Source: a virus. From it: a stretch of 64,000 nucleotides of DNA. The notes under the pieces were generated by a model. The model worked only from the letters and a program-made list of their open reading frames with translations, made no database searches and was not told the origin of the DNA. This document shows positions 1-21,029 of the stretch, in pieces (the stretch's first letter is position 1; every line of letters starts with the position of its first letter). The DNA lies in IMG/VR virus record IMGVR_UViG_3300021962_000060, positions 1 to 64,000 of that record; one strand, written 5' to 3'. Position numbers and translations under genes: made by a program.

Positions 1-244
1 TGAAACCGGACTGCCGGTGGAAATCACCGACCTGTTCACCGAAACCGATGCCAAGGCTCCGGCGTACCATCTCGCCCACCGGATCCTGTCCGCCGGCGTG
101 GTTCGCCCCGAATGGGCGAATGTTCAGGTGGTCACGATGCGAACCGGAACCATCACCACCGGAAAGGGTGGAACCATCACCGGCGAAACCACCACCACCG
201 GAAAGGTCGGCACCGTTCGGGTGTTCATCACGCCGGTGTCCTGA
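1..244 (+). CDS. Array family A protein, 5'-truncated by window edge
   Basis: C-terminus (YHLAHRILS..RPEWANV..ITGETTTT..RVFITP) aligns by eye with 706-1089 and 2059-2448; followed by terminator. Confidence 0.8.
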   Translation, partial: ETGLPVEITDLFTETDAKAPAYHLAHRILSAGVVRPEWANVQVVTMRTGTITTGKGGTITGETTTTGKVGTVRVFITPVS

Positions 245-260
245 CCGAACCGAACCACCG

Positions 261-300
261 AAAGGGAACCCCGACCCGAAAGGGTCGGGGTTCTCCCTTT
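261..300. terminator. Intrinsic terminator hairpin
   Basis: AAAGGGAACCCCGACCC-GAAA-GGGTCGGGGTTCTCCCTTT directly after stop at 244. Confidence 0.85.
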
Positions 301-303
301 CCC

Positions 304-367
304 GACCCACTTTCGGGTCTGGCGTACTGACCCACTTTCGGGTCGAGCGTACTGACCCACTTTCGGG
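304..367. repeat. Tandem repeat, 25-bp period, about 2.6 copies
   Basis: GACCCACTTTCGGG starts at 304, 329, 354, linked by TCnnGCGTACT. Confidence 0.9.
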
Positions 368-515
368 CAGGGATCCCTGGAACCAAACGGCTGCCAGATC
401 GAGGTCGGCTGGAGTACTGATCTAACGTTAGACCCGATTGAGTAAACAATCCCTTCCCATCGGCTGAGTCCGATCAGATAAGAAAACTCTAACGTTAGAC
501 CGCAAAATCCTAAAG

Positions 516-560
516 GCGGGTGTACAGCGGGGTCGCTACGCTGGGGAGCCGTACACCCGC
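516..560. repeat. Spacer hairpin, variant II
   Basis: GCGGGTGTAC...GTACACCCGC enclosing GGGTCGCTACGCTGGGGA; paralog at 1847-1892. Confidence 0.85.
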
Positions 561-650
561 TGGGCAGATTGTTGCGATTGCAACTAGTTGAGTGAATGTT
601 GCAATTGCAACGAACACGTTTCTGGGCGGCGCATCGACCCAATCCCAGAA

Positions 651-686
651 ACGGAGAAGCCCCGCCGTTTCCGGCGGGGCTTCCGT
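651..686 (-). terminator. Terminator for 706-1089
   Basis: GAAGCCCCGCCG-TTTC-CGGCGGGGCTTC hairpin downstream of the stop. Confidence 0.75.
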
Positions 687-705
687 TGTTGCGGTGCGGT
701 GCGGG

Positions 706-1089
706 TCAGGCCACGGGTGCGATGACCACGTGTGTCGCACGTGTCGTCGTCGTTTCGCCGGTAATCTCCGTGCGGGTCGCCGTAACGTTCCGCATTCCGA
801 CAACGGCGACATTGTGCCAGTAGGGACGAATTGCGCCGTGTGAGAGCGCACGGTGCGCCGTGTGGTACACCTTGTCCGAACCGTCCACGGGGAACAGGTC
901 AGAAACGTCCACGCTCTTGCCGGTGCGGATGACCGTCAGCACCACGGCGAGAAGAGCGGTGACCCGCGCCCAATTCGCACGGTTGGAACCGTTGCCATTG
1001 TCGCGGTACTCCGTGACCAATTTCTGCGCCTGTTGCGCGTCGGACGGCGACACTTTCGCCGTGGTGAATGTTGCCTGCTTTGTGTCCAT
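706..1089 (-). CDS. Array family A protein (MDTKQ...)
   Basis: AGGAGG SD before ATG at 1089; homologous to 1-244 and 2059-2448. Confidence 0.85.
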   Translation of the reverse strand: MDTKQATFTTAKVSPSDAQQAQKLVTEYRDNGNGSNRANWARVTALLAVVLTVIRTGKSVDVSDLFPVDGSDKVYHTAHRALSHGAIRPYWHNVAVVGMRNVTATRTEITGETTTTRATHVVIAPVA

Positions 1090-1344
1090 CGGACACCTCC
1101 TTGTGTGCCGGTGCGATGACCGGATGAGAAGAGCGTAGCAGAAACAAACGGAGAAACACAACGCTAGGGCAACAATTAGAGAATGTTCACCTAAAGTTTA
1201 CTTACACAATGCAAATAATAATCATTCACTAATTTGCATAATAATGCAGTCGAGAAGATGACGGTTCTATCGTTAGAGCCGGCGACCACACCCCTGGTTT
1301 CTAACGTTAGAAATCTGACTTTATGAGAGGCTTGCATCTGGCCG

Positions 1345-1386
1345 GCTGGTGCGCTATTACGCTCGTTCCTCACTTAGCGCACCAGC
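1345..1386. repeat. Spacer hairpin, variant III
   Basis: GCTGGTGCGCTA...TAGCGCACCAGC with GCTCGTTCCTCAC loop; paralog at 2654-2694. Confidence 0.9.
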
Positions 1387-1478
1387 GGCTCTAACGTTAT
1401 ATACATTATAACTTTATTACACATTTCTAACGATACAAATATTTCTTCTAACGTTGGGAAAAATCTAGTCTAGGGTCG

Positions 1479-1506
1479 TTGACTTTCCCTGACGAGTTAC
1501 TAAGAT
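1479..1506 (+). promoter_or_regulatory. Sigma70/SigA-type promoter for a leaderless transcript
   Basis: TTGACT-N16-TAAGAT; ATG 6 nt after the -10 box, no SD. Confidence 0.7.
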
Positions 1507-1512
1507 GAAGAC

Positions 1513-1713
1513 ATGGCAAAACAAATACACACACTCACCATTCAGTTCCCGACCCGCCAAGCATTAGCAGACTTTGTGCGAGACCATTTCGAGGCTGGTC
1601 TAGCAGTCTACGAGGCTGACGCTCTTGACCCCGAATATGTTGGCAATCCTGGTTCCAACTCATACGTCCTGCGTCGTGCCGGTCACAAGCCTGAAGAAAT
1701 GCGGGTCGCCTAA
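1513..1713 (+). CDS. Cassette hypothetical protein (66 aa)
   Basis: ORF between promoter and terminator hairpins. Confidence 0.8.
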   Translation: MAKQIHTLTIQFPTRQALADFVRDHFEAGLAVYEADALDPEYVGNPGSNSYVLRRAGHKPEEMRVA

Positions 1714-1846
1714 CGACCCTCGTTCATGGTCATGCCGATCCGAAAGAGGGTCGTCATGACCACAACCAAACGTTAGAACCCGCCCCAAAAGGCGGGTCTC
1801 TTTCGGATAACAATTCTAACGTTAGGAATACAGTTCTAACGTTAGG

Positions 1847-1892
1847 GCGGGCGTGCGGTGGGGTCGCTACGCTGGGGAACAAGCACGCCCGC
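1847..1892. repeat. Spacer hairpin, variant II
   Basis: GCGGGCGTGC...GCACGCCCGC; compensatory changes relative to 516-560. Confidence 0.85.
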
Positions 1893-2058
1893 TGGCACGA
1901 TAGTTGCAAACGCAACAAGTTGAGTGAATGTTGTAAATGCAACGAACGCAATAGTTCTAACGATAGGAACCGGACTTTATTCGACCGTCGCGGCACTTCG
2001 GTACAAACGAAAGACCCCGCCCTCTCGGGCGGGGTCTCGTTGCCGTCGCTCTCGTTTG

Positions 2059-2448
2059 TCAGTTTGGCGTGATGAAGACTCGCCCGTGCCCCTTGCTCGT
2101 TGCCGTCTTGCCCGTGATGCTCGTTGCCGTTTCGCCTTCCACGCTCACGAACATAGTCACGCTGAAAGTCTTCCCGAGCATCTTCTCAAACGTGCGAGTC
2201 CGAGACCACGCAACGTGGTACTCGTTGCTCTTGCCAATGAGAGGTCGAACCTCGTTGGTGACTTCCACGCTGTCGCCCGTGATGAGAGCGACGAGGACAG
2301 CAAGGCGAATCGCATCGCCAGCCTTGCGAGTGTCCGAGTCGGGACTTCCCGAGCGATTGCCCAACGGGGGGAGACTTGCGAGGTGAGCGACAGCCTTCGC
2401 CATTGTCGCTTTGTTCACCTTCGCCTTTCGTAGTGTCGTAGTTTCCAT
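2059..2448 (-). CDS. Array family A protein (METTTLRKAKV...)
   Basis: GAAAGG SD; upstream TTGACT-N17-TAGTTT; terminator at 2011-2040; homologous to 706-1089. Confidence 0.85.
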   Translation of the reverse strand: METTTLRKAKVNKATMAKAVAHLASLPPLGNRSGSPDSDTRKAGDAIRLAVLVALITGDSVEVTNEVRPLIGKSNEYHVAWSRTRTFEKMLGKTFSVTMFVSVEGETATSITGKTATSKGHGRVFITPN

Positions 2449-2653
2449 TGCCTTGCCTTTCGTGAATCGGCGTTATTGCCGTACCTAGGAAACTAATCGG
2501 TATTCGCAAGCGAGTCAAGGGGAAATGTTTATTCATAGTCACGCATAACGATACAAGAAACCGGCGAGTCGAATCTCTATCGTTAGAGCCGGCAAGTCGA
2601 GCCTACTTTCTAACGTTAGAGAAATGACTTTATGAAAGCCCTAACGTTAGAGC

Positions 2654-2694
2654 GCTGGTGCGCTATTTGCTCGTTCCTCACGTAGCGCACCAGC
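2654..2694. repeat. Spacer hairpin, variant III
   Basis: GCTGGTGCGCTA...TAGCGCACCAGC flanked by CTAACGTTAG at 2641 and 2699. Confidence 0.9.
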
Positions 2695-2805
2695 CGCTCT
2701 AACGTTAGAGAACAGCAGAAGTTTAGCGTATTTCTAACGATAGGAACTCGACTTTATGAAGGCTCTAACGTTTCAAAAAAACTTTGTAACGATACAAAAC
2801 AATGC

Positions 2806-2834
2806 TTGACCACCTTGTAGGTATCGCATAGGAT
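2806..2834 (+). promoter_or_regulatory. Sigma70/SigA-type promoter
   Basis: TTGACC-N17-TAGGAT. Confidence 0.7.
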
Positions 2835-2873
2835 TATCTCATCGGGAACGGAGTACCGATACGAAAGGAAGTT

Positions 2874-3089
2874 ATGGCAGTTTCACGGGCAGTCAAGGAC
2901 TTGTTCCTGACCGACGAACTCGGTTGGCAAGAAGCAGAACAAATCGAGGCTATCGTTAGCACGGTGTCTCCCGAATGGCAGAACGCTCTGCGGTTCTGTA
3001 TCGTTATCGGTCGCAAGGGCGACAGCGACGCTTTCCGCGACCTCGCCAAGCGTATCCTGCGGAACGAGCAAACGTTAGGGGGTGAGTGA
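2874..3089 (+). CDS. Cassette hypothetical protein (71 aa)
   Basis: GAAAGGAAG SD, promoter upstream. Confidence 0.8.
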   Translation: MAVSRAVKDLFLTDELGWQEAEQIEAIVSTVSPEWQNALRFCIVIGRKGDSDAFRDLAKRILRNEQTLGGE

Positions 3090-3090
3090 G

Positions 3091-3246
3091 ATGCCCAAGC
3101 GTTCACGCTGGTACTACGAAATCCGTTGGCTGGTTCGTGTAACGTTCTGGACAGCCGTATGCCTGATAGCGACGGCGACCCTCGTATCGTTAGCGGTGTT
3201 CCTGACGGACTTCGTGAACTACGTCTGGCACGGTACAGGTCGATAG
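3091..3246 (+). CDS. Small single-pass membrane protein (51 aa; not in ORF track)
   Basis: MPKRSRWYYEIRWLVRVTFWTAVCLIATATLVSLAVFLTDFVNYVWHGTGR*; purine-rich SD; followed by terminator at about 3265-3296. Confidence 0.7.
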   Translation: MPKRSRWYYEIRWLVRVTFWTAVCLIATATLVSLAVFLTDFVNYVWHGTGR

Positions 3247-3323
3247 CGTATCGTTAGACAAGTCGAAACCGGCCCTATCGTTAGGGTCGGTTTTCGCTTC
3301 CGCCATGCCCTAACGTTAGAAGC

Positions 3324-3364
3324 GCCGGTGTTCTAACGTTGATGCTCAACGTTAGAACACCGGC
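3324..3364. repeat. Spacer hairpin, variant I
   Basis: Perfect 19-bp stem GCCGGTGTTCTAACGTTGA, loop TGC. Confidence 0.95.
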
Positions 3365-3510
3365 TTGTCTAACGATAGAAAAGTTATTGTATTTAGTAGA
3401 TTTCTAACGATAGCAATCAGACTTTATCAGAGCTCTAACGTTTCAAAATATTTCTAAAGATTTCCTACAATAGTGTGGAATAGCCTTACTGGTCGCCTAG
3501 AGTTACTGAC

Positions 3511-3795
3511 ATGAACACATACACAGAACACAACAGCCCCGAAGAAGCCATCGCCTACTGCGCCGAGCACAATGACGAACTCTTCCCCGAAGCCAAAGAA
3601 CTCACCATCACCGGCACACTCTCCTGCCCGATGTGCCGTTCCAAAGCGTGGATCATCATGCCTGCCGAGTGGGTCGATGCGTTCCTGTCCGGTGCGTTCG
3701 CACAGGATGCGTTTCCGAACATGACATCCTCACAGCGAGAGCGGTTCATCACAGGGATCTGCCCATCCTGCTGGGGCAAGATGTTCGCACGCTGA
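3511..3795 (+). CDS. Cassette protein with two CxxC motifs (Zn-binding)
   Basis: CPMC...CPSC; leaderless (TAGAGT 7 nt before ATG); terminator at 3806-3836. Confidence 0.85.
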   Translation: MNTYTEHNSPEEAIAYCAEHNDELFPEAKELTITGTLSCPMCRSKAWIIMPAEWVDAFLSGAFAQDAFPNMTSSQRERFITGICPSCWGKMFAR

Positions 3796-3859
3796 ACCAA
3801 CGTTAGAAGCCCGCCCTACGGGGCGGGCTTCTTTCGGCTAGCGACACTAACGTTAGAGC

Positions 3860-3901
3860 GCCGGTGTTCCAACGTTAGCTCGCTAACGTTGGAACACCGG
3901 C
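3860..3901. repeat. Spacer hairpin, variant I
   Basis: GCCGGTGTTCCAACGTTAGC-TC-GCTAACGTTGGAACACCGGC; compensatory T-A to C-G. Confidence 0.95.
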
Positions 3902-4036
3902 TGTGCTAACGTTACAGCCGAACTGGTATTTAGTACGGTTCTAACGATACAGGCTCGACTTTACCTGAGCTCTAACGTTTCAAAATATTTCCTAAATAGT
4001 TGTGAAATGGTCTTTCGGGCTGTTACCATCTTGTCT

Positions 4037-4351
4037 ATGAGCATTCATCACATCACAGACCAAGACATTGTTGATCACCTCGTCTATTCAGGTGCGAGCC
4101 AGTACAGTTGGTATCGTATCTTGGAATGGGACGGCAAGGACGTTCACGTTGAGATGTACACAGGTGAGGGCGGCATCGTTACAAAGTCTTTCCTCATCTC
4201 TCAGTTGCGAGATGTTATCGTTAGCATCCTCAACGATGTGGAACCCTACAGCCCCCGGATTGCGCGAGCAGTCGTAGAAGATGACTTTGACTCGGACGAC
4301 GCGGATGTGGTTCTCCAGATCGCAACGTTAGGGGAGGTGGTCTTCGGCTGA
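4037..4351 (+). CDS. Cassette acidic hypothetical protein
   Basis: Start re-called at ATG 4037 (TACCAT -10 box 7 nt upstream); terminator at 4377-4406. Confidence 0.85.
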   Translation: MSIHHITDQDIVDHLVYSGASQYSWYRILEWDGKDVHVEMYTGEGGIVTKSFLISQLRDVIVSILNDVEPYSPRIARAVVEDDFDSDDADVVLQIATLGEVVFG

Positions 4352-4429
4352 CGAACCCCCAGTCGGTCGAACGTTAGAACCCGCCCTTCGGGGCGGGTTT
4401 CTTTCGACCCGGTACTCTAACGTTAGAGC

Positions 4430-4470
4430 GCCGGTGTTCTAACGTTGACGCTCAACGTTAGAACACCGGC
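4430..4470. repeat. Spacer hairpin, variant I
   Basis: Perfect 19-bp stem, loop CGC. Confidence 0.95.
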
Positions 4471-4604
4471 TGTTCTAACGTTAGAACTTTTACTGACTTT
4501 AGCACATTTCTAACGATAGATAAGTGACTTTATGTCGGCTCTAACGTTTCAAAATAATTTGTAAACATTAGTCTGGAATTGGTAGAACTTGCTAGAATCT
4601 CTCT

Positions 4605-5234
4605 ATGAACAAAACCACCTGTATCTACTGCGGAGTACCGAGAGTCCACCCTGAACGAATCTATCGTTACTGCAACAGCGAAGAGTGCGTGAAGAGGGGA
4701 CAGTCCTACGAATCACCTATCTATGACAGCACCACGGTGACTGACAGCACGGCAGAACTGACCGATACCATCGCCACGCTGGAATCAGAACTAGCAATCG
4801 CTAGCGATAGAATCGCAACCCTCACGGGGCGGGTCGCTGAATTTCAGGCACAAATTGACAAGGGGTTCGCTGATGCCCACAAGGTGTACGACAACGCTAT
4901 CAGCGTCGGTCGGTTTGATTGTCTCCGTTCTATGGTTAGGCAGCATAACGAATTCGTGATGTCTAGTGGGCTATCGACCCACCCTGATGAATACGTTAGA
5001 GACATCTACGGGCAGATGTTGTCACTACTGGAAAGAGACATGAAGAAGGTAGGAATCAGAACATACGGAACGTTAGGCGAGTGGGTCGTTCTCTCTCCTG
5101 ACACCGAATACAACCATGCCCGATACTTGGCAGAGGACAAGGGGACACGCATCTACGAAGGTGAAGTGGTGCGGGTCGGTTACGAAACCGAAACCGGAAT
5201 GGTCATAGAACCAGCCCTCGTTATCAAATACTGA
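4605..5234 (+). CDS. Cassette protein: N-terminal C4 Zn ribbon, coiled coil, GrpE-like C-terminus
   Basis: CIYC..YC..EC; heptad region; VGIRTYGTLGE...VVRVGY...VIEPALV resembles the GrpE head; leaderless TAGAAT. Confidence 0.7.
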   Translation: MNKTTCIYCGVPRVHPERIYRYCNSEECVKRGQSYESPIYDSTTVTDSTAELTDTIATLESELAIASDRIATLTGRVAEFQAQIDKGFADAHKVYDNAISVGRFDCLRSMVRQHNEFVMSSGLSTHPDEYVRDIYGQMLSLLERDMKKVGIRTYGTLGEWVVLSPDTEYNHARYLAEDKGTRIYEGEVVRVGYETETGMVIEPALVIKY

Positions 5235-5299
5235 ATCCAACGTTAGAGGCCGGCTCCGAAGCCGGCTCTCTTTCGCTGGCATCCCCTAACGTTAGAAGC

Positions 5300-5340
5300 G
5301 CCGGTGTTCTAACGTTGAGCATCAACGTTAGAACACCGGC
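5300..5340. repeat. Spacer hairpin, variant I
   Basis: Perfect 19-bp stem, loop GCA. Confidence 0.95.
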
Positions 5341-5474
5341 TGTGCTAACGTTAGAGAATCGCATAGATTGAGTGAACTTCTAACGATAGAGGCTCGACTT
5401 TATCCAAGCTCTAACGTTTCAAAATAATCTAGAAATAGTAGTGAAATGGTTAGTGGAGTCGCTAAGATGTCGCT

Positions 5475-5855
5475 ATGACCTACAACCTCAGATTCACCTA
5501 TCGACCCCTTTCCGATTCGTTGATGATTTACGTTGATAACGATAGATTCACGAACGCTGATACCGTGATTCAAGCCCAGTTGGGCGATGACCTAACATTG
5601 GAGATTGCCAACATTGACGGATTCCCGCTGTTCTCCGGTGTTCAGATTATGAACGCATCGTTCATTCCGGTGTGGACGGAACCCCTTGACAAGTTCCTAA
5701 CAATACAACTGCTGGACGCATTCGTTGATACCCTCTCCCGTCTTTCGTGGAAAGCCAACGAAACGGAACCGGAGAACATCTTTGAGCGAATCATTGGGGA
5801 ACGCTGGACGATGCTGGCAGAACGGAAAGACCTTGCTATCACGATGCCCGACTGA
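5475..5855 (+). CDS. Cassette hypothetical protein (126 aa)
   Basis: Leaderless (TAAGAT 6 nt before ATG); terminator at 5881-5910. Confidence 0.85.
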   Translation: MTYNLRFTYRPLSDSLMIYVDNDRFTNADTVIQAQLGDDLTLEIANIDGFPLFSGVQIMNASFIPVWTEPLDKFLTIQLLDAFVDTLSRLSWKANETEPENIFERIIGERWTMLAERKDLAITMPD

Positions 5856-5933
5856 ATCGACCCACTCGGCACAAACGTTAGAGGCCGCCCTTCGGGGCGG
5901 CTCTCTTTCGCCATCATCCCCTAACGTTAGAGC

Positions 5934-5974
5934 GCCGGTGTTCTAACGTTGACGCTCAACGTTAGAACACCGGC
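5934..5974. repeat. Spacer hairpin, variant I
   Basis: Identical to 4430-4470. Confidence 0.95.
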
Positions 5975-6154
5975 TGTTCTAACGTTAGAAGATCTCTAAC
6001 GTTTAGTGAGTTTCTAACGATAGGAGCTCGACTTTATGAGCTCTCTAACGTTTCAAATTTCTTTCTAACGATACAAGAAAGTCGGGAAAGAATGTCGGAA
6101 AGGGTAGGGTAGGTGCTAGTCTTTCTCTTGTCGGAAGGGCAGTCCTCCCGACAG

Positions 6155-6170
6155 TGTTCCACGTGGAACA
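6155..6170. promoter_or_regulatory. parS: parS-consensus palindrome
   Basis: TGTTCCACGTGGAACA matches the bacterial chromosomal parS consensus TGTTYCACGTGRAACA. Confidence 0.7.
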
Positions 6171-6191
6171 CTCCAAACGAAAGGTACAAGA

Positions 6192-6467
6192 ATGTCGGAC
6201 TTTGAGATTGTGGATGCGAAGAGCGTTCAGTTCGTGAAGAGGGGTCGCAAGTCGGTCGCTGATCCCAAGTTGGTGGAAGCCCTCAAGAAACTGCCTAACG
6301 GCAAGGCGATGGTCATCGCAAGCCTCAAGCAGGATCCCAAGGCGGACACTTACGCTAACGATAAGGCGCGGGTCGCTAGTCAGATCCGCACGGCTTGTAA
6401 GTCGGCAGGGCTGGACAGTTTCTCCATTCGGTGGACTGAGACCGGCGTTCCGCAGGTCGTTCGCTGA
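6192..6467 (+). CDS. Array family B small basic protein (FVKRGRKS), putative DNA-binding
   Basis: GAAAGG SD; clear similarity to 7306-7599 and 7921-8211. Confidence 0.9.
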   Translation: MSDFEIVDAKSVQFVKRGRKSVADPKLVEALKKLPNGKAMVIASLKQDPKADTYANDKARVASQIRTACKSAGLDSFSIRWTETGVPQVVR

Positions 6468-6545
6468 ATCGACCCACTCAGGGCAAACGTTAGGGGTTGG
6501 GCTTGCCGCCCGGCCCCTTTCGTTCGCTCCGGCCTCTAACGTTAG

Positions 6546-6589
6546 GGCAGGTGTTCTAACGTTAGCACGCTAACGTTAGAACACCTGCC
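6546..6589. repeat. Spacer hairpin, variant I
   Basis: GGCAGGTGTTCTAACGTTAGC-AC-GCTAACGTTAGAACACCTGCC; compensatory C-G to A-T. Confidence 0.95.
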
Positions 6590-6718
6590 GCGCTAACGTT
6601 AGCGTGATGCTCCAATTGAGTACACATCTAACGATACAAGAAATCCGCATAATAGTTCTTATTTCACCAATTCGACCGGCTAGGATAGTCTCACCATCCA
6701 ATAGAGAAAGGTCAAGTA

Positions 6719-7003
6719 ATGGAAAGAGTTAGTGGACAACTGAGCATCCCTACTGAGAACTGGGTCATCTTCTGTAAATACATGGATGTTCTGACCGACA
6801 TGATCCCAGTGATCGACGCACATGATAAGATTATTTCCGAAATCCCCTCCATTCTTCTGGGTGTTCCCCAGAAATTGGCAAACATCATCGTTCACCATTT
6901 GATCGGCTTGGACATTATGGGGAACATTGGTTACGCCAAGGAATTAGTCGAAGAAGCACTGTCCTATCATTACAAGATGCCGATGACGCTTGTGATTGAC
7001 TGA
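6719..7003 (+). CDS. Cassette hypothetical protein (94 aa)
   Basis: GAAAGG SD; terminator at 7022-7051. Confidence 0.8.
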   Translation: MERVSGQLSIPTENWVIFCKYMDVLTDMIPVIDAHDKIISEIPSILLGVPQKLANIIVHHLIGLDIMGNIGYAKELVEEALSYHYKMPMTLVID

Positions 7004-7075
7004 TAGTCGGCTGAAACGTTAGAACCCGCCCGAAAGGGCGGGTTTCTTTCGCATCGGAGTCCTAACGTTAGAAGC

Positions 7076-7116
7076 GCCGGTGTTCTAACGTTAGATGCTA
7101 ACGTTAGAACACCGGC
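7076..7116. repeat. Spacer hairpin, variant I
   Basis: Perfect 19-bp stem, loop ATG. Confidence 0.95.
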
Positions 7117-7305
7117 TGGGCTAACGTTAGAGGAGCTCTAACGTTTAGTGCGGTTCTAACGATAGACACTCGACTTTATGAGCTGTCTAACGTTTCAAAA
7201 TATTTTCTAACGATACAACAAAGTCCTAGAATAGTAGGGGAACGCCTAGTGGAACTGGTAGTGTCTTACTTGTCGGGGAACAAACGAACCGACAGAGAGG
7301 TAGAA

Positions 7306-7599
7306 ATGTCCAATCCGAAGTCCGGCGACGAGTTTGAGATTGTCTCGTCGTCATCTATCCAGTTCGTGAAGCGTGGTCGTAAGTCACTCGCAGACCCGAA
7401 ACTCATCGAACAACTCAAGATGCTCAACAAGGGACAAGCGATGGTGATTCGCAAGTACCAGCAAGACCCGAAGTCGGCAACCTACGCTAACGATAAGGCT
7501 CGCGTCGCCAGCCAGATTCGGACAGCGTGTAAGACCGCCAACCTCGTCGGATTCAGCATCGTCTGGTCGCCCGAGGGAATCCCGCAGGTCAAACTCTGA
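7306..7599 (+). CDS. Array family B protein
   Basis: GAGAGG SD before ATG 7306; FVKRGRKS...YANDKARVASQIRTAC. Confidence 0.9.
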   Translation: MSNPKSGDEFEIVSSSSIQFVKRGRKSLADPKLIEQLKMLNKGQAMVIRKYQQDPKSATYANDKARVASQIRTACKTANLVGFSIVWSPEGIPQVKL

Positions 7600-7687
7600 C
7601 CTAGCGTTAGAGAGGGAGCCGCCCCAACGTTAGGGGCGGCTTTCTTTCGACCCAGCTCTCTAACGTTAGACGCTAACGTTAGACGGA

Positions 7688-7724
7688 CGGGCGTAACGTT
7701 AGAAACGCTCTAACGTTACGCCCG
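7688..7724. repeat. Spacer hairpin (diverged)
   Basis: CGGGCGTAACGTTAGA-AACGC-TCTAACGTTACGCCCG. Confidence 0.9.
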
Positions 7725-7920
7725 CGCTAACGTTAGAACCTTATCCATAAAATTTTGTATCCAATTCCTAACACAAATACCATCAATCGACTTTATCTAA
7801 AATCTAATCCTAATGTTATAAAAACTTTATAAGGCCTAACGTTAGAACCTTATCTAAAGGAAATGCCTCGACTTTCGCCGAGGCATTCCTTAGGACTAGG
7901 CTTTGGGTTTGTGTTCGGAA

Positions 7921-8211
7921 TTACCGAACGATTTGGGGAATGCCCTCAGGTGACCAAAGGATTCGGAATTCCGTAACCTTTGCCTCACGGCAAGCGGTGC
8001 GGATTTGCGAGGCAATGCGAGCCTTTTCGTTTGCGAAATTCGCAGACTTTGGATCGACCGCAAGGCTTTTCACAGCCATTGCCTTGCCCACTCCGAGGGT
8101 TTTGAGTGCCTCAACGAGTGCGGGATTGACTTTGGATTTGCGTCCCCGCTTGACGAAGGAAATTTCGGTGGAATTGACCACCTCAAATTCCGGGTTGTTT
8201 GATGTTGCCAT
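7921..8211 (-). CDS. Array family B protein (inverted cassette)
   Basis: AAAGG SD; extended -10 TGCTATGAT at 8274-8282; terminator at 7857-7892. Confidence 0.9.
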   Translation of the reverse strand: MATSNNPEFEVVNSTEISFVKRGRKSKVNPALVEALKTLGVGKAMAVKSLAVDPKSANFANEKARIASQIRTACREAKVTEFRILWSPEGIPQIVR

Positions 8212-8432
8212 TGTGTTGCCTTTCTTTGGGATTTGATTGGAATTTGTGTGAATAGCCTTGTCCACGAATTCCATCATAGCATAGTGAAATTGTGAATAAA
8301 AATTCTGGGTATTTGTAGGTCATTGCAGATGCAATAAGTCGAGCTTTAGGTCGAGCTTTGTGCCGGCCTTGTTTGTAACGTTAGAGCTCATAGGCAAAGG
8401 CTAACGTTAGAGAAAATCTAACGTTAAGCAGG

Positions 8433-8473
8433 CGGGTGCTCTAACGTTAGATTTTCTAACGTTAGAGCACCCG
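8433..8473. repeat. Last spacer hairpin of the array
   Basis: CGGGTGCTCTAACGTTAGA-TTT-TCTAACGTTAGAGCACCCG. Confidence 0.95.
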
Positions 8474-9072
8474 TTCTAACGTTAGAGCTTTAAATAAAAA
8501 ATTTAATGCAAATCCTAATCCTTATTCTTACAATAACTTTACGGGGAACTTTTCAATTGATCTTTTCAATCAATTATGCTCAACCGCTCATAAAGCCAGG
8601 GGAATGCTCGACCTTACCCCTGTATCTATCCCTACTGATAGGGACACCTATAACCGCCGGCTAACCCGATCATATTTCTGACCGGAATTCCTGAACAATA
8701 CCGATTATTGCCGGCTACAAAGAACCAAATTTCATTGATGTAATCAACCAGAATATTTCTTCTGATAGTCTGATTTGATAATCAAGATTATTACTACATA
8801 GATTTTTTCTAATATGATCCAACCTTTATACGGAGCTCATTTTGAGTCCGATCAAACACTTTTCTATATAGGCTGCTCTAACCAAAACACTAACCGGCCG
8901 GCTAAGGAGATACCTTCCCAGTGTCAATATTACTAGAGAGAACTATAACACACCCCAGGTATATTTTTCGCTAGAAAACACACAAAAACCAAAACAAACA
9001 AACAAAAAAACCTGAGAACACCCATCAATTTAACAAAAATTGAACATTATTGAGCGTAAAACACAAGCCTGT

Positions 9073-12787: not shown

Positions 12788-13276
12788 TTACTCATCCTCT
12801 TCTTCACTAAAATTGTTGTCAATAATTTTGTAAAAAGTCTCTTGTTGATTTTCATGTTCTTCAACAATTCTTTTCATAATATTAGTCATTTGTTCTCTAA
12901 TTTCTTTTAACCCCTCCAGTTCTTCTTCCGACAAAGTGCTTTCATCAAGTTCTTCAAAATTGTACTCAGCCTCAATGTATTCTTGACGCTCGCTATCAGA
13001 CATATTCCTCATATTTTCATATTCATGAATAGCAGCGCCATATCTATACACCATGTCTAGATCATCATTACTCAAACCAGTTTCTTGCTGAATTTTTTCT
13101 AAAGAAAGTTTTTTGATCATAATAATCTTTCTAATATCAACTTCATCATCATCCTCAATACTGCTCATGTAATCTTCACTCATTTGACATATGATTTCTT
13201 CTCTTCTATTGAATAGCCAAAGCATCATATATGGATGTACATTATTGATATTATAAAAGTCTTTTGCTGTATACAC
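12788..13276 (-). CDS. Acidic hypothetical protein
   Basis: AGGAGG SD before GTG at 13276. Confidence 0.75.
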   Translation of the reverse strand: MYTAKDFYNINNVHPYMMLWLFNRREEIICQMSEDYMSSIEDDDEVDIRKIIMIKKLSLEKIQQETGLSNDDLDMVYRYGAAIHEYENMRNMSDSERQEYIEAEYNFEELDESTLSEEELEGLKEIREQMTNIMKRIVEEHENQQETFYKIIDNNFSEEEDE

Positions 13277-13305
13277 ATTTCCTCCTGATTTGATATATAA
13301 AAAAA

Positions 13306-13425
13306 AGAATAGGCAAGAATCCTTTGCAAAGACCAATTGCTTTAATATCAACTACTGAACAACCGCGCACAGTAATCAATACAGGATTCTCTTAAGCCAA
13401 CCTAGGGGAAGCTTTAGCCTATTCT
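13306..13425 (-). ncRNA. Unknown structured RNA, copy 1 (about 120 nt)
   Basis: Closing stem AGAATAGGC/GCCTATTCT, inner stem AGAATCCT/AGGATTCT; paralog at 13814-13925; abuts tRNA-Arg 3' end. Confidence 0.7.
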
Positions 13426-13428
13426 TAG

Positions 13429-13501
13429 CACCTCAAGTAGGACTTGAACCTACAACCTACAGATTAGAAGTCTGTTGCTCTATCCATTAAGCTATTGAGG
13501 T
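13429..13501 (-). tRNA. tRNA-Arg(TCT)
   Basis: Acceptor ACCTCAA/TTGAGGT, anticodon loop CTTCTAA, GGTTCAAGTCC T-arm; no encoded CCA. Confidence 0.92.
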
Positions 13502-13510
13502 ATTTAATTA

Positions 13511-13735
13511 CTAAAAACTATATTCTTGAAGATCAATAATTGTCCCAACTCTACTGCTAACACAACTATCACAAATATAAATACGACTAAAAGTCATATC
13601 ATATTCAGAACCATAGTTACCCACAAAATCGAGGCTGGTTCCTTTGTAGATGTTATCATCACTTTTGAAAAGACACTCCAACTCTTTGAAGCACACAAAG
13701 CAAAGTACATTTCCATTATTTGTTTTATTTTCCAT
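13511..13735 (-). CDS. Small Zn-binding protein between tRNAs
   Basis: CFVC...GNYGSEYD...ICDSC. Confidence 0.7.
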   Translation of the reverse strand: MENKTNNGNVLCFVCFKELECLFKSDDNIYKGTSLDFVGNYGSEYDMTFSRIYICDSCVSSRVGTIIDLQEYSF

Positions 13736-13737
13736 AG

Positions 13738-13809
13738 TATCTCAGGTAGGATTTGAACCTACAACCAATAGATTAAAAGTCTACTGCTCTACCATTGAGC
13801 TACTGAGAT
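13738..13809 (-). tRNA. tRNA-Lys(TTT)
   Basis: Acceptor ATCTCAG/CTGAGAT, loop CTTTTAA, GGTTCAAATCC. Confidence 0.92.
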
Positions 13810-13813
13810 AAAT

Positions 13814-13925
13814 TAGAATAGGCAGAGAACCTTTGTTGCAATGGCAAACTTTGATATCTTGCCGAAGCAAAGATACAGGTTCTCCTTAATGTTTCAGAAA
13901 GGGGTAAAACACTTAGCCTATTCTA
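13814..13925 (-). ncRNA. Unknown structured RNA, copy 2 (about 112 nt)
   Basis: TAGAATAGGC/GCCTATTCTA closing stem, GAGAACCT/AGGTTCTC, TTCG-capped hairpin; 4 nt upstream of tRNA-Lys. Confidence 0.7.
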
Positions 13926-13937
13926 AACCTTTTGTGG

Positions 13938-14504
13938 TTAGCAGGCCAAAGACCAAGGCTTCCAACCACACAAACCTTTTTCTTCTCTTGAAGAGTAAAG
14001 TTTGTAAGCAAACTCCAAGTTTATTCTAGGATCAAACATATCGTCTGGATGACTATAACCCATTTGGCTCAGCCATTCAGAGTGAATTTGGTTAATCTGA
14101 GTCAAGCCGGCATCGTGACCATTCCAAGCGTCAGTTGTGCAACGACTTTCTTTCCATATAATCTGAGAAACATTAGGCCATTCTTCTTCTGTAAACCCAA
14201 CATCAATAGCTAGGTCATGCCATTCACCACACTTGCCATACTTTTCTCTGAGTTGCTCAACAGTTAAAGTTTCTTCTGCTTCAATCGCAACATTCACAGA
14301 ATCAATATCAACAGGTGGAATCGTTATGACAGGCATAGTTGTTGTAGTTGTTGTAGTGGTTTCCACCTCTGTAGAAGAAACTACATAATATCCACTATCA
14401 CCTTCAATAGGATTATTTTTCAAATCATCATTTGATGCTAATACTGATATGCCAGTCAATCCTAAACTGATACCAATAATTGTAATTATAATAATACGTT
14501 TCAT
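13938..14504 (-). CDS. Secreted or membrane-anchored lysozyme-like (SLT) transglycosylase
   Basis: N-terminal signal/TM, Thr-rich linker, IIWKESRC (catalytic E), GLTQIN, DPRINLEFA, GWKPWS. Confidence 0.8.
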   Translation of the reverse strand: MKRIIIITIIGISLGLTGISVLASNDDLKNNPIEGDSGYYVVSSTEVETTTTTTTTMPVITIPPVDIDSVNVAIEAEETLTVEQLREKYGKCGEWHDLAIDVGFTEEEWPNVSQIIWKESRCTTDAWNGHDAGLTQINQIHSEWLSQMGYSHPDDMFDPRINLEFAYKLYSSREEKGLCGWKPWSLAC

Positions 14505-14672
14505 ATTTGCTCCTTAAGTAGTGTGTCTAAACGAAAACCGTTTCGGCATCGCTAAATCAGTAGCAAAACGAAATTGTCTACAAACCAAAATCGCTTTACT
14601 AGTAAGTTATATCAATAAGCATCACCTCCATATAAGTACATCTCTCTATTATACCATTTATACAAGCACTAG

Positions 14673-19743: not shown

Positions 19744-20127
19744 TTAATTGTTCTCTAGCATTTGGACAAGACGTTCAGCATATTCATACATTGGTGATTT
19801 TTCATCCAATACTCTGAAAGCATGGTCAAACCAATCATTGAAATGATACTCAACTTTATAGATTTCACCACTGCTGTTTTCATCATAAAGATAAATCTCT
19901 AACCAATCACCAGGGCCACCTGTAGAGATTTGGACAGTAATAACTTTTCTTGTATTGATATCTAATGGATATTCATGGAAAGCATCATAGGCATCTTCAT
20001 ACCCATCAAAAGTCATTCCGTCATCCATTGCGGCAAGCATCTCCATCATGTAGTCATTACGACTTTTAAGATGACTATCAATTCTTAGTTCACAAGAATT
20101 GTCTCGGATTTGATCTTCAATATTCAT
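19744..20127 (-). CDS. Phage hypothetical protein (STGGPGD...YHFNDWFD motif)
   Basis: AAGGAG SD, coupled. Confidence 0.8.
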   Translation of the reverse strand: MNIEDQIRDNSCELRIDSHLKSRNDYMMEMLAAMDDGMTFDGYEDAYDAFHEYPLDINTRKVITVQISTGGPGDWLEIYLYDENSSGEIYKVEYHFNDWFDHAFRVLDEKSPMYEYAERLVQMLENN

Positions 20128-21029
20128 TCTACTCCTTGTAGGTAATTTCTTGCATCAAGAGAAAGAACAACAATAGAATTCAACTTGCTAGCACGAAGTC
20201 TATAGTTGTAACTATCAATAATCATAAGGCACAAAGCAATATTGTTAGCAAAAGGTGTCGATCCTCTGCTGGAAGATTTAGCTTTTGCAATCACATTAGT
20301 AGGGTCACCAAGAGAGGCAATACACGACGCAAGACGAGTCAGATTAACCAACTTATAGTTGACAATAATCGTCGCAACAGCAGTCAAATATTCAGCCTGA
20401 AATGCTGTCGAGTTTGTGCCGTTTGCTTCTTTCAAAACTTTGATCACATTGTTCAAGTTGTTAATTCCTACTTTGGAATTGACTTTATACAAAGTATCAA
20501 TAGCTCTAATTACTCCATCACCAGGTCTATTCTCAACAGAAAGGTTATGAGAGCGAAGCATAGCATCAATAGCAACTGAATCAGGATTGCCCGAACTAAC
20601 GCCGGCCTTATGCAAGTCAGCTTTCTTAGGCTTAGTCCTGTTCTCATTTATAGTAATATACAAGTCTGCTTCATCCTGAATAGACAGATCAAGAAAAACA
20701 ATTGCATTCAAATCACTATTGCCTTTACCCATAATCTTGAGAGCCTCAACACGGTGAGAACCATCAATAATATACAGATCACCATTCTCACGGTAAGACA
20801 AAGTAATAACGCCAATGGCATTCTCATTGTAATTCTTCACAATGAGATTAACCTTGTTTTGATTTACTTCGCGCTGGTAAGACATATCAATCTTCAATTC
20901 AGAAGCTTTGACAAGAGAAGTTAACTTACTTTTCTGCTTAAACTTGACATTGAGATTACTCTCGATTTCTTGAATTGATACAGATTCCATCTGCTCTTTC
21001 ATGATCAAATCAAAATCTTCAGTTTGCAT
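20124..21029 (-). CDS. ParB/Srx N-terminal domain protein
   Basis: LKIDMSYQRE...IGVITLSYRENGDLYIIDGSHRVEAL...EADLYITIN. Confidence 0.8.
   Translation of the reverse strand: MQTEDFDLIMKEQMESVSIQEIESNLNVKFKQKSKLTSLVKASELKIDMSYQREVNQNKVNLIVKNYNENAIGVITLSYRENGDLYIIDGSHRVEALKIMGKGNSDLNAIVFLDLSIQDEADLYITINENRTKPKKADLHKAGVSSGNPDSVAIDAMLRSHNLSVENRPGDGVIRAIDTLYKVNSKVGINNLNNVIKVLKEANGTNSTAFQAEYLTAVATIIVNYKLVNLTRLASCIASLGDPTNVIAKAKSSSRGSTPFANNIALCLMIIDSYNYRLRASKLNSIVVLSLDARNYLQGVE

What the first reader, a model, noticed from the sequence alone, without database searches (positions are those of the whole stretch)
13306..13925. Two paralogous unknown structured RNAs interleaved with the tRNAs
Seen on the minus strand: both copies fold as P1 AGAATAGGC/GCCTATTCT, TAA, P2 hairpin with CCCCT in the loop, TAAG, then P3 AGAA(T)CCT/AGG(A)TTCT enclosing P4 (GTAT...ATAT, variable length, TTCG loop in copy 2) and a short P5. 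Stems vary while linkers are conserved. Copy 1 starts 3 nt after tRNA-Arg and copy 2 ends 4 nt before tRNA-Lys, so tRNA processing could release them. I do not recognise the family. Inference: a phage ncRNA class (decoy, antitoxin mimic, Y-RNA-like or ribozyme).
Basis: partly seen in the sequence, partly recalled or inferred. Interest (0 to 1): 0.75.

Follow-up and report, generated by a model that had tools for sequence, protein, structure and literature searches.

The report
New folded RNAs flanking phage tRNAs
Two related, roughly 115-base folded RNA genes sit hard against the tRNA-Lys and tRNA-Arg genes of an uncultured phage and recur, with shape-preserving mutations, in five related phages; they match no catalogued RNA family and their job is still unknown.

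Summary
On the minus strand, 13306-13425 (3 nt after tRNA-Arg-UCU) and 13815-13924 (5 nt before tRNA-Lys-UUU) are diverged paralogs with one fold. P1 closes a three-way junction with hairpin P2 and helix P3. P3 closes a second junction with P4 and P5. Both fold far better than shuffles (z -4.8, -5.7). I found six more copies in five syntenic uncultured phage contigs. Across all eight, 99% of modelled pairs form and 15 of 31 pairs carry compensatory changes, two of them in P1. The sense strand scores about 90-117 bits, the antisense about 17-21. Rfam 15 has no match, even at E<=10. T4 rnaC/rnaD, three Streptomyces phages, 12 other phage contigs, GenBank phages (blastn) and GTDB genomes (pattern scan) also gave nothing. 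Every copy lies beside a tRNA, but the downstream gene differs between phages. My reading is a new family of tRNA-operon-embedded small structured RNAs. RNase P and the tRNA 3'-end nuclease would release them with both ends clamped by P1. This is the same kind of thing as T4 species 1/2 RNAs but not homologous to them. Function is inferred only: a partner-binding RNA using conserved junctions and a C/U-rich P2 loop, or a cis transcript-end protector. No expression data could be obtained.

The parts
13815..13924 (-). Copy 2 ('type A', 110 nt). Helices: P1 13924-13916/13823-13815; P2 13913-13905/13896-13888 with loop CCCCUUUC at 13904-13897; P3 13885-13877/13832-13824; P4 13876-13867/13862-13854 (UUCG loop); P5 13849-13844/13839-13835. 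It lies in the 3' UTR of the transglycosylase gene, 5 nt upstream of tRNA-Lys.
   Evidence: (113.9 bits)
13306..13425 (-). Copy 1 ('type B', 120 nt). Helices: P1 13425-13417/13314-13306; P2 13414-13410/13398-13394 (loop UCCCCUAGGUU); P3 13391-13383/13323-13315; P4 13382-13370/13357-13345 (apical UGCGCGGUUGU); P5 13340-13337/13329-13326. It starts 3 nt after the tRNA-Arg discriminator.
   Evidence: (109 bits)
13429..13501 (-). tRNA-Arg(UCU), with no encoded CCA. Its 3' processing site would define the 5' end of copy 1.
13738..13809 (-). tRNA-Lys(UUU), 82% identical to the tRNA-Arg. RNase P cleavage at its 5' end would define the 3' end of copy 2.
13298..13305 (-). U8 run directly after the P1 3' strand of copy 1. 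L026 has UUUUUCUAUUU at the same place. It may mark the end of the tRNA transcription unit.
   Evidence: not called a terminator by the consensus scan
13511..13735 (-). 74-aa CxxC...CxxC ORF between the two tRNAs. Together with tRNA-Lys it is present only in the window/L026 lineage.
   Evidence: (no Pfam)
13938..14504 (-). SLT-type lytic transglycosylase gene (PF01464). In 5 of 6 phages a type-A copy follows its stop codon.
14505..14671 (-). Highly conserved promoter-like/5'-UTR stretch that probably starts the unit transglycosylase - copy 2 - tRNA-Lys - orf74 - tRNA-Arg - copy 1.
   Evidence: 86% mean column identity across 3 phages; inference for the promoter role

Best explanation
These are genes for a previously uncatalogued family of small (about 110-125 nt) structured RNAs built into the tRNA transcription unit of one clade of uncultured, probably actinobacterial, tailed phages. 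The RNA is read from the same strand as the tRNAs. It folds into a rod of three end-to-end helices, P1-P3-P4. There are no linker nucleotides at J3/1 and J3/4, so coaxial stacking is expected. Two side hairpins, P2 and P5, emerge at two three-way junctions whose linkers are nearly invariant (UA, AA, YAAR, WA). Each copy abuts a tRNA. RNase P cutting at the tRNA 5' end (type A) and the tRNA 3'-end endonuclease cutting after the discriminator (type B) would leave the element with tails of only 3-6 nt. P1 clamps those tails, which should make an exonuclease-resistant stable RNA. I think it then most likely acts in trans. It would present its conserved junctions and its pyrimidine-rich P2 loop (CCYUUUCKG in type A, CCCCU or CUCCU in type B) to a partner, either a G-rich/Shine-Dalgarno-like RNA or a protein. 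Shown here: the fold, the covariation, the strand, the tRNA linkage and the absence from known families. Inferred: co-transcription, release by tRNA-processing enzymes and stability. Speculative: the partner. Odds: real structured RNA family 0.9; released as a discrete stable species 0.6; acts through the P2 loop on RNA 0.2.
For: Fold: z -4.8 and -5.7. All 8 copies give the same architecture by unconstrained MFE, and each is 5-15 kcal/mol more stable than its reverse complement. Covariation: 99.2% of 247 cells are paired, and 15 of 31 pairs have changes on both sides. No shuffle of 500 reaches the observed values, and slid controls give 33-49% paired and at most 4 such pairs. RNAalifold independently finds 16 compensatory pairs. 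P1 changes by two compensatory pairs in L078. Strand: invariant G.U pairs open P3 and P4. The model scores 84-117 bits on the sense strand against 17-21 bits on the antisense. Linkage: 7 of 8 copies lie 3-6 nt from a tRNA-Arg(UCU) or tRNA-Lys(UUU) and the eighth lies 66 nt away. The gene downstream of type B and of the L078 copy is not conserved, which argues against a gene-specific leader. Clade: all six contigs are syntenic relatives, and neighbouring proteins have diverged to 30-55% identity while junctions and inner P1 stay invariant. From the literature and my knowledge: T4 makes two stable RNAs of unknown role from its tRNA region (PMC3014915; annotation). C-rich loops are the seed of the actinobacterial 6C sRNA (PMC6486639).
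Against: Only 8 copies from 6 related contigs are known, several of them close relatives, so the compensatory events are fewer than the cell counts suggest. In L021, L037 and L038 a plain terminator hairpin sits where window and L026 have type B, so a type-B copy is not needed at that site in every phage. In L078 a strong hairpin plus U-run separates the tRNA from the element, so release by tRNA processing is not universal. No complementary target for the P2 loops stands out at start sites in the phage genome. No RNA-binding or RNA-repair protein was detected nearby or in the record.
Confidence: 0.55

Rival explanations
1. Cis-acting end caps. The elements stay attached to the flanking messages and protect the new RNA ends made when the tRNAs are cut out. 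Type A would be a 3' stabiliser of the transglycosylase mRNA after RNase P cleavage. Type B would be a 5' stabiliser or terminal structure of the unit. No trans function is needed.
For: The spacers to the tRNA cut sites are tight: 5-6 nt upstream and 3 nt downstream. P1 pairs the extreme ends. Type A begins 13-15 nt after the stop codon of the upstream gene in 5 phages. The type-B position holds a simple hairpin in L021, L037 and L038. Type B is followed by a U-run.
Against: A protective hairpin does not need two three-way junctions with near-invariant linkers, invariant G.U pairs and conserved loop motifs. Yet these are kept between paralogs that have otherwise diverged to about 55-60% identity. 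The L078 copy lies behind a terminator-like hairpin rather than at a cut site.
Confidence: 0.25
2. Regulatory leader, riboswitch or terminator for the downstream gene or for the tRNA unit. A ligand or protein would set whether P1 forms and transcription stops at the U-run.
For: Type B and the L078 copy lie 20-45 nt upstream of a Shine-Dalgarno and start codon. P1 3' is followed by U-rich sequence. The junction-rich fold looks like an aptamer.
Against: Type A copies are followed by a tRNA, not an ORF. Downstream ORFs are unrelated between window/L026 and L078. No alternative anti-terminator pairing is evident. The consensus terminator scan does not call it. No riboswitch family matches.
Confidence: 0.07
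3. A new self-cleaving ribozyme that helps cut the polycistronic tRNA transcript.
For: It sits at RNA processing boundaries and has conserved junction nucleotides. Small ribozymes are common in phage metagenomes (my knowledge).
Against: No hit at E<=10 to hammerhead, twister, twister-sister, pistol, hatchet, HDV or any other Rfam ribozyme. Neither junction carries the hammerhead core. tRNA-processing enzymes already explain the cuts.
Confidence: 0.04
4. A DNA-level element, such as a miniature inverted-repeat mobile element, a recombination site or an origin, rather than an RNA.
For: P1 is a 9-11 bp terminal inverted repeat that is identical in both paralogs. The element occurs on either side of a tRNA gene, and tRNA genes are classic integration targets.
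Against: Internal helices covary. G.U pairs, invariant at the base of P3 and P4, would be A.C mismatches on the other strand. Scores and folding energies are strongly strand-asymmetric. There are no target-site duplications, only 1-2 copies per genome, and no copy in GTDB genomes by pattern scan.
Confidence: 0.03

Closest known systems
Bacteriophage T4 small stable RNAs, species 1 and 2 (rnaC, rnaD)
   Same: Both are two 119-139 nt non-coding RNAs encoded on the tRNA strand. In T4 they start 1 nt after tRNA-Arg(UCU) (NC_000866 71053-71171 and 70908-71046). Both are cut from the tRNA transcript. Their role has been unknown for 50 years (PMC3014915).
   Different: There is no homology. Model R2 gives no hit at rnaC or rnaD with filters off. 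rnaC carries a tRNA-like T-arm and rnaD folds weakly (z -0.8). The present RNAs have two nested three-way junctions and no T-arm. In T4 the two RNAs are tandem, whereas here they bracket the tRNAs.
tRNA-operon spacer-derived sRNAs (e.g. E. coli 3'ETS-leuZ sponge)
   Same: Both are functional small RNAs that are by-products of tRNA precursor processing. Their ends are set by the tRNA-processing nucleases and, for the trailer, by the operon terminator (my knowledge; reviews retrieved).
   Different: 3'ETS-leuZ is a short Hfq-dependent sponge with little structure beyond its terminator. Here the fold is complex and covarying, the setting is a phage, and the probable host group lacks Hfq (my knowledge).
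GOLLD and ROOL large ornate RNAs
   Same: Both are phage or prophage structured RNAs of unknown function that are typically encoded next to tRNA islands (PMC12286853). GOLLD is also found in Mycobacterium tRNA arrays (PMC7549688, cited there).
   Different: GOLLD and ROOL are 500-800+ nt, form multimeric cages and are in Rfam. The present RNAs are about 115 nt and give no Rfam match.
Actinobacterial 6C sRNA (Rfam RF01066)
   Same: Both display C-rich apical loops on stable hairpins. In 6C these loops pair with G-rich mRNA sites without a chaperone (PMC6486639).
   Different: 6C is a two-hairpin chromosomal sRNA. There is no Rfam hit here. The architecture and genomic setting differ, and only one loop per molecule is C-rich.
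Bacterial/phage Y RNAs (YrlA)
   Same: Both are small structured RNAs whose 5' and 3' ends pair in a conserved stem, and Y RNAs are sometimes phage-encoded.
   Different: There is no YrlA/Y_RNA match, no tRNA-like domain and no Ro60/TROVE gene in the 90.9-kb record.

Membership tests
Any Rfam 15 family | Covariance-model score at or above the family's gathering threshold | tested here: not met
   Only the four tRNAs reach threshold in the whole window. At E<=10 on 13200-14050, nothing overlapping the elements scores above 18 bits against thresholds of 39-55 bits. The L078 copy also gave nothing.
T4 rnaC/rnaD | Position: same strand, immediately flanking tRNA-Arg within a phage tRNA cluster | tested here: met
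T4 rnaC/rnaD | Sequence/structure homology to rnaC or rnaD | tested here: not met
   R2 with filters off on the T4 tRNA region gave no hit at L020:4909-5047 or 5054-5172. The folds are different.
T4 rnaC/rnaD | Accumulates as a discrete stable RNA processed from the tRNA precursor | not testable with these tools
tRNA-spacer-derived sRNA (5'/3' ETS type) | Encoded in the leader or trailer of a tRNA transcript, with ends coinciding with tRNA processing sites | tested here: met
   Spacers are 5-6 nt to the tRNA 5' end and 3 nt from the discriminator in 7 of 8 copies. The exception is L078 at 66 nt.
tRNA-spacer-derived sRNA (5'/3' ETS type) | Base-pairs with other RNAs as a sponge or regulator | not testable with these tools
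   The host is unknown. No convincing phage targets were found.
Y RNA / YrlA | Ro60 (TROVE) partner encoded nearby, a tRNA-like module and a Ro-binding stem | tested here: not met
   No TROVE gene in the record and no Rfam hit.
Known self-cleaving ribozyme classes | Match to the class consensus core | tested here: not met
   No hit at E<=10. By inspection, neither junction carries the hammerhead core.
Intrinsic terminator | Short GC-rich hairpin (loop 3-8 nt) followed by a U-run | tested here: not met
   The consensus scan calls nothing at 13298-13425. A U-run follows P1 only in type B and L078, and P1 closes about 100 nt rather than a small loop.
6C sRNA | Two hairpins with C-rich loops and an RF01066 match | tested here: not met
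   No Rfam hit. Only the P2 loop is C-rich.

The most novel reading that the evidence does not exclude
The type-A P2 loop (CCCCUUUCUG, CCCCCUUUCUG or UUCCUUUCUG in 4 of 6 copies, CCCUUUCGG-like in the other two) contains or nearly contains CCUUUCU. This is the 3'-terminal heptamer of the 16S rRNA anti-Shine-Dalgarno tail of Gram-positive bacteria (my knowledge; a post hoc observation). The type-B loops carry CCCCU or CUCCU. The RNA could therefore be a nuclease-resistant mimic of the ribosome's anti-SD tail, made together with extra tRNA-Lys/Arg. It might titrate SD-containing host messages as a form of host shut-off. Or it might act as a decoy for host abortive-infection endoribonucleases (MazF/VapC-type) that cut pyrimidine-rich rRNA or tRNA loops. 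That would make it an RNA counter-defence packaged with replacement tRNAs.
Probability: 0.08. Interest if true: 0.85.

Novelty: new variant of a known kind. Interest (0 to 1): 0.5.

Why it matters
Phage tRNA islands repeatedly harbour structured RNAs whose roles are unknown. T4 species 1/2 RNAs have been unexplained since the 1970s, and GOLLD and ROOL are other examples. This adds a compact, well-defined, covarying family with an unusually clean arrangement: paralogs bracket the tRNAs at the exact processing sites. At about 115 nt it is small enough for probing, crystallography or cryo-EM, and pull-downs. If it proves to be a trans-acting or anti-defence RNA, it would show that phages ship functional RNAs as by-products of tRNA maturation. 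If it is a cis end-protector, it would show how phages keep messages alive when tRNAs are excised from polycistronic transcripts. Its narrow distribution (6 contigs, no cultured phage) limits its immediate reach.

Tried and rejected
- **Rfam:** gathering and permissive scans found nothing.
- **Linker-only DNA pattern in IMG/VR:** it returned only chance coding matches, L002-L006.
- **P1-anchored patterns:** they returned L021 plus the chance hit L022 in IMG/VR. In metagenomes they returned 35 loci, of which only L026 (two copies), L037 and L038 are real.
- **One wasted IMG/VR scan:** my pattern was mis-specified by one base (diagnosed).
- **P1-free patterns:** they added L078 only.
- **GTDB genome contigs:** 13 chance loci and no model hit.
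- **tRNA-Arg anchor:** two other phages carry the same tRNA core but no element.
- **Transglycosylase homologs:** 13 viral loci and their whole contigs lack the element.
- **Cultured relatives:** LilMartin, Coruscant and LukeCage gave no hit. blastn of each copy against 50,697 GenBank phage records gave nothing real.
- **Partner-protein fishing:** 20 neighbouring ORFs had no informative Pfam domain. The record has no TROVE, RtcB or RNA-ligase gene.
- **Pseudoknot or kissing between the P2 loop and the P4/P5 loops or J4/5/J5/3:** I inspected all 8 copies by eye and found no consistent complementarity.
- **T-box-like UGGN in the P5 loop:** UGGU occurs in only 4 of 8 copies (GGGU in a fifth), so I rejected it.
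- **'TAGAAT' of P1 as a -10 promoter box** (one search lists it): rejected, because a start there would exclude the P1 5' strand, which covaries in L078.
- **Targets of the P2 loop in the phage genome:** none lie at ribosome-binding sites.
- **Tools unavailable:** I therefore could not test expression or fetch the contigs of the 84-57% identical transglycosylase homologs P0002-P0018.
- **Prior catalogue:** the supplements of the 10,006-candidate viral RNA catalogue (PMC10690425) are not held. I cannot exclude that this motif is listed there under a number.

Full report
**Setting.** The window is the first 64 kb of a 90.9-kb IMG/VR virus record. From about 8.5 kb onward the DNA is about 35% G+C and almost all genes are on the minus strand. 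Four tRNA genes lie at 13.4-16.0 kb on that strand. They read AGA, AAA, AUA and UUA. The terminase is most like those of Streptomyces (Stanwilliamsviridae) and Gordonia phages, at about 41% amino-acid identity. This fits the scan's earlier guess of an actinobacterial host but does not prove it.

**The observation.** On the minus strand, the transglycosylase (PF01464) gene is followed 13 nt after its stop by a 110-nt element at 13924-13815. Then come AAUUU, tRNA-Lys(UUU), a 74-aa ORF, tRNA-Arg(UCU), CUA, and a 120-nt element at 13425-13306. A U8 run, a Shine-Dalgarno and a GTG ORF follow.

The two elements share AGAAUAGGC-UAA at the 5' end and U-GCCUAUUCU at the 3' end. They also share the UAAG, CUGUAU, AUAU-YAAAG and AAAGG linkers. 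The sequence between these blocks differs.

Unconstrained folding gives both the same architecture, with z-scores of -4.84 and -5.71 and no shuffle folding as well. The only correction is that the spacer to tRNA-Lys is 5 nt, not 4.

**Architecture.**
- P1 (9 bp, extendable to 10-11) closes a three-way junction with hairpin P2 and helix P3 (9 bp).
- P3 closes a second three-way junction with P4 (9-17 bp, variable) and P5 (4-5 bp).
- No nucleotides lie between the 3' strands of P3 and P1, or between the 5' strands of P3 and P4. A P1-P3-P4 coaxial rod with two side arms is therefore the expected shape (inference).
- The linkers are UA (J1/2), AA (J2/3), YAAR (J4/5) and WA (J5/3).
- The first pairs of P3 and P4 are invariant G.U.

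**Relatives.** DNA-pattern scans followed by covariance-model filtering found six more copies.

| Locus | Position of the element |
|---|---|
| L021 (IMG/VR contig) | between the transglycosylase gene and tRNA-Arg |
| L037 (JGI metagenome contig) | between the transglycosylase gene and tRNA-Arg |
| L038 (marine metagenome contig) | between the transglycosylase gene and tRNA-Arg |
| L026 (two copies) | same arrangement as the window |
| L078 | 66 nt downstream of tRNA-Arg, behind a long hairpin with a U-run |

All six contigs are syntenic relatives of one phage clade. Proteins around the tRNA region have diverged to 30-55% identity and core proteins to 60-90%.

**Covariation.** On the model-based alignment of the eight copies (A5), 99.2% of pair cells are standard pairs and 15 of 31 pairs carry double changes. 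None of 500 shuffles reaches the observed percentage paired, the number of pairs or cells with double changes, or the covariation score. Sliding the partners by 1-3 columns drops pairing to 33-49%. RNAalifold on the same alignment finds 16 compensatory pairs.

At least five different P3 sequences all pair. P1, identical in seven copies, changes at two pairs in L078 (A-U to U-A and A-U to G-C), so it is a true helix.

Two caveats apply. Three of my four collection scans that found real copies fixed the P1 sequence, so the near-invariance of P1 across phages is partly ascertainment. However, the identity of P1 between the two diverged paralogs within the window, and within L026, is not. Second, several copies are close relatives, so independent events are fewer than cells.

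**Strand.** The sense strand scores 84-117 bits and the antisense 17-21. Each copy is 5-15 kcal/mol more stable than its reverse complement. The invariant G.U pairs would be A.C mismatches on the other strand. This points to an RNA read in the direction of the tRNAs, not a DNA palindrome.

**Known families.**
- Rfam 15 gives only the tRNAs at gathering thresholds. At E<=10 nothing meaningful appears over the elements or over the L078 copy. Known ribozymes, riboswitches, Y RNAs, 6C, pRNA and metagenome-derived motifs in Rfam are therefore excluded as members.
- T4's rnaD and rnaC start 1 nt after T4 tRNA-Arg, a striking positional parallel. The model does not hit them and their folds differ.
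- The model finds nothing in 12 other phage contigs that carry the transglycosylase or the same tRNA-Arg core, and nothing in three cultured Streptomyces phages.
- blastn of each copy finds nothing in 50,697 GenBank phage records. A pattern scan of one genome per GTDB species returned only chance matches.
- I could not check the 2023 catalogue of 10,006 viral candidate RNAs (PMC10690425), because its supplements are not held.

**What it is linked to.** The constant neighbour is a tRNA, either Arg-UCU or its 82%-identical paralog Lys-UUU. The spacers are 5-6 nt on the tRNA 5' side and 3 nt after the discriminator, and the tRNAs encode no CCA. The downstream gene is not constant: the ORF after type B in window and L026 has no homolog after the L078 copy. 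In L021, L037 and L038 a plain terminator hairpin occupies the type-B position. No RNA-related protein was found among 20 neighbouring ORFs. The record encodes no Ro60, RtcB or RNA ligase.

**Mechanism (inference).** A conserved promoter-like and 5'-UTR stretch after tRNA-Ile probably drives the unit: transglycosylase, type A, tRNA-Lys, orf74, tRNA-Arg, type B, U-run.

RNase P cleavage at the tRNA 5' end gives type A a 5-6 nt 3' tail. Endonucleolytic 3' maturation of the CCA-less tRNA-Arg gives type B a 3-nt 5' tail. In both cases P1 clamps the ends, which should block 3' exonucleases and 5'-end-dependent decay. The product would be either a free stable RNA or, if the other end is not cut, a protected mRNA end.

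A simple hairpin would be enough for protection. The conserved junction linkers, G.U pairs and loop motifs argue that the fold is itself recognised. I therefore favour a partner-binding stable RNA (0.55 for the overall reading) over a pure cis end-cap (0.25).

The best candidate interaction surface is the P2 loop. It is C/U-rich in all eight copies within an AT-rich RNA: CCYUUUCKG in type A and L078, CCCCU or CUCCU in type B. C-rich loops are the pairing seed of the actinobacterial 6C sRNA (PMC6486639). The type-A loop also resembles the 3' tail of 16S rRNA (my knowledge, post hoc). No matching sites stand out at start codons in the phage genome. The host is unknown, so the partner remains open.

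**Verdict.** This is a real, new, narrowly distributed structured-RNA family of a known kind, namely small RNAs embedded in phage tRNA clusters. The specific functional guesses are untested or unsupported. Expression, processing and partner are the missing pieces.

Noticed in passing
window 14505-14671 (-): The intergenic stretch between tRNA-Ile and the transglycosylase gene shows 86% mean column identity across three phages, although their transglycosylase proteins are only about 71-74% identical over the conserved C-terminal part. It holds a TGGTATAAT-like -10 box, two GTTT(G)TAGACA boxes and a CCGAAACGG+UUUU hairpin. There is no Rfam hit and the fold is modest (z -2.2). It is probably a promoter plus an operator or leader.
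   Followed up: partly
window 13429-13501 and 13738-13809 (-): tRNA-Arg(UCU) and tRNA-Lys(UUU) are 82% identical, whereas other tRNA pairs are 56-63%. They look like paralogs related by a C35-to-U anticodon shift. tRNA-Lys and orf74 exist only in the window/L026 lineage.
   Followed up: partly
L078:5440-5672 and 5748-5815 (+): In the most distant relative, tRNA-Arg is preceded by about 230 nt of non-coding sequence with two folded stretches (z -2.5, -2.6). It is followed by a long hairpin plus U-run (z -5.6) before the element. These may be further tRNA-flanking structured RNAs.
   Followed up: partly
window 1-8500: The first 8.5 kb is 49-53% G+C against about 35% elsewhere, and its genes lie on both strands. 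Other notes of this scan cover it (a cassette array with palindromic spacers). L026 shares these genes at 65-97% identity, so it is part of the phage rather than a chimera.
   Followed up: partly
window 13511-13735 (-): A 74-aa ORF with two CxxC pairs sits between the two tRNAs. It has no Pfam or PHROG match, is 78% identical in L026 and has a weak relative elsewhere in G002.
   Followed up: partly
window 20124-21029 (-): A 301-aa protein matches DUF6551, with weak similarity to the ParB-like GmrSD N-terminal and DndB domains. It may be a DNA-modification or anti-restriction function.
   Followed up: no
window 61790 to beyond the window end (G000 61790-68377, -): A very large ORF (about 2,195 aa) follows a 1,282-aa protein with a minor-tail-protein match and a 540-aa tail-fibre-like protein, so it is probably a giant tail or tape-measure-type protein.
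   Followed up: no
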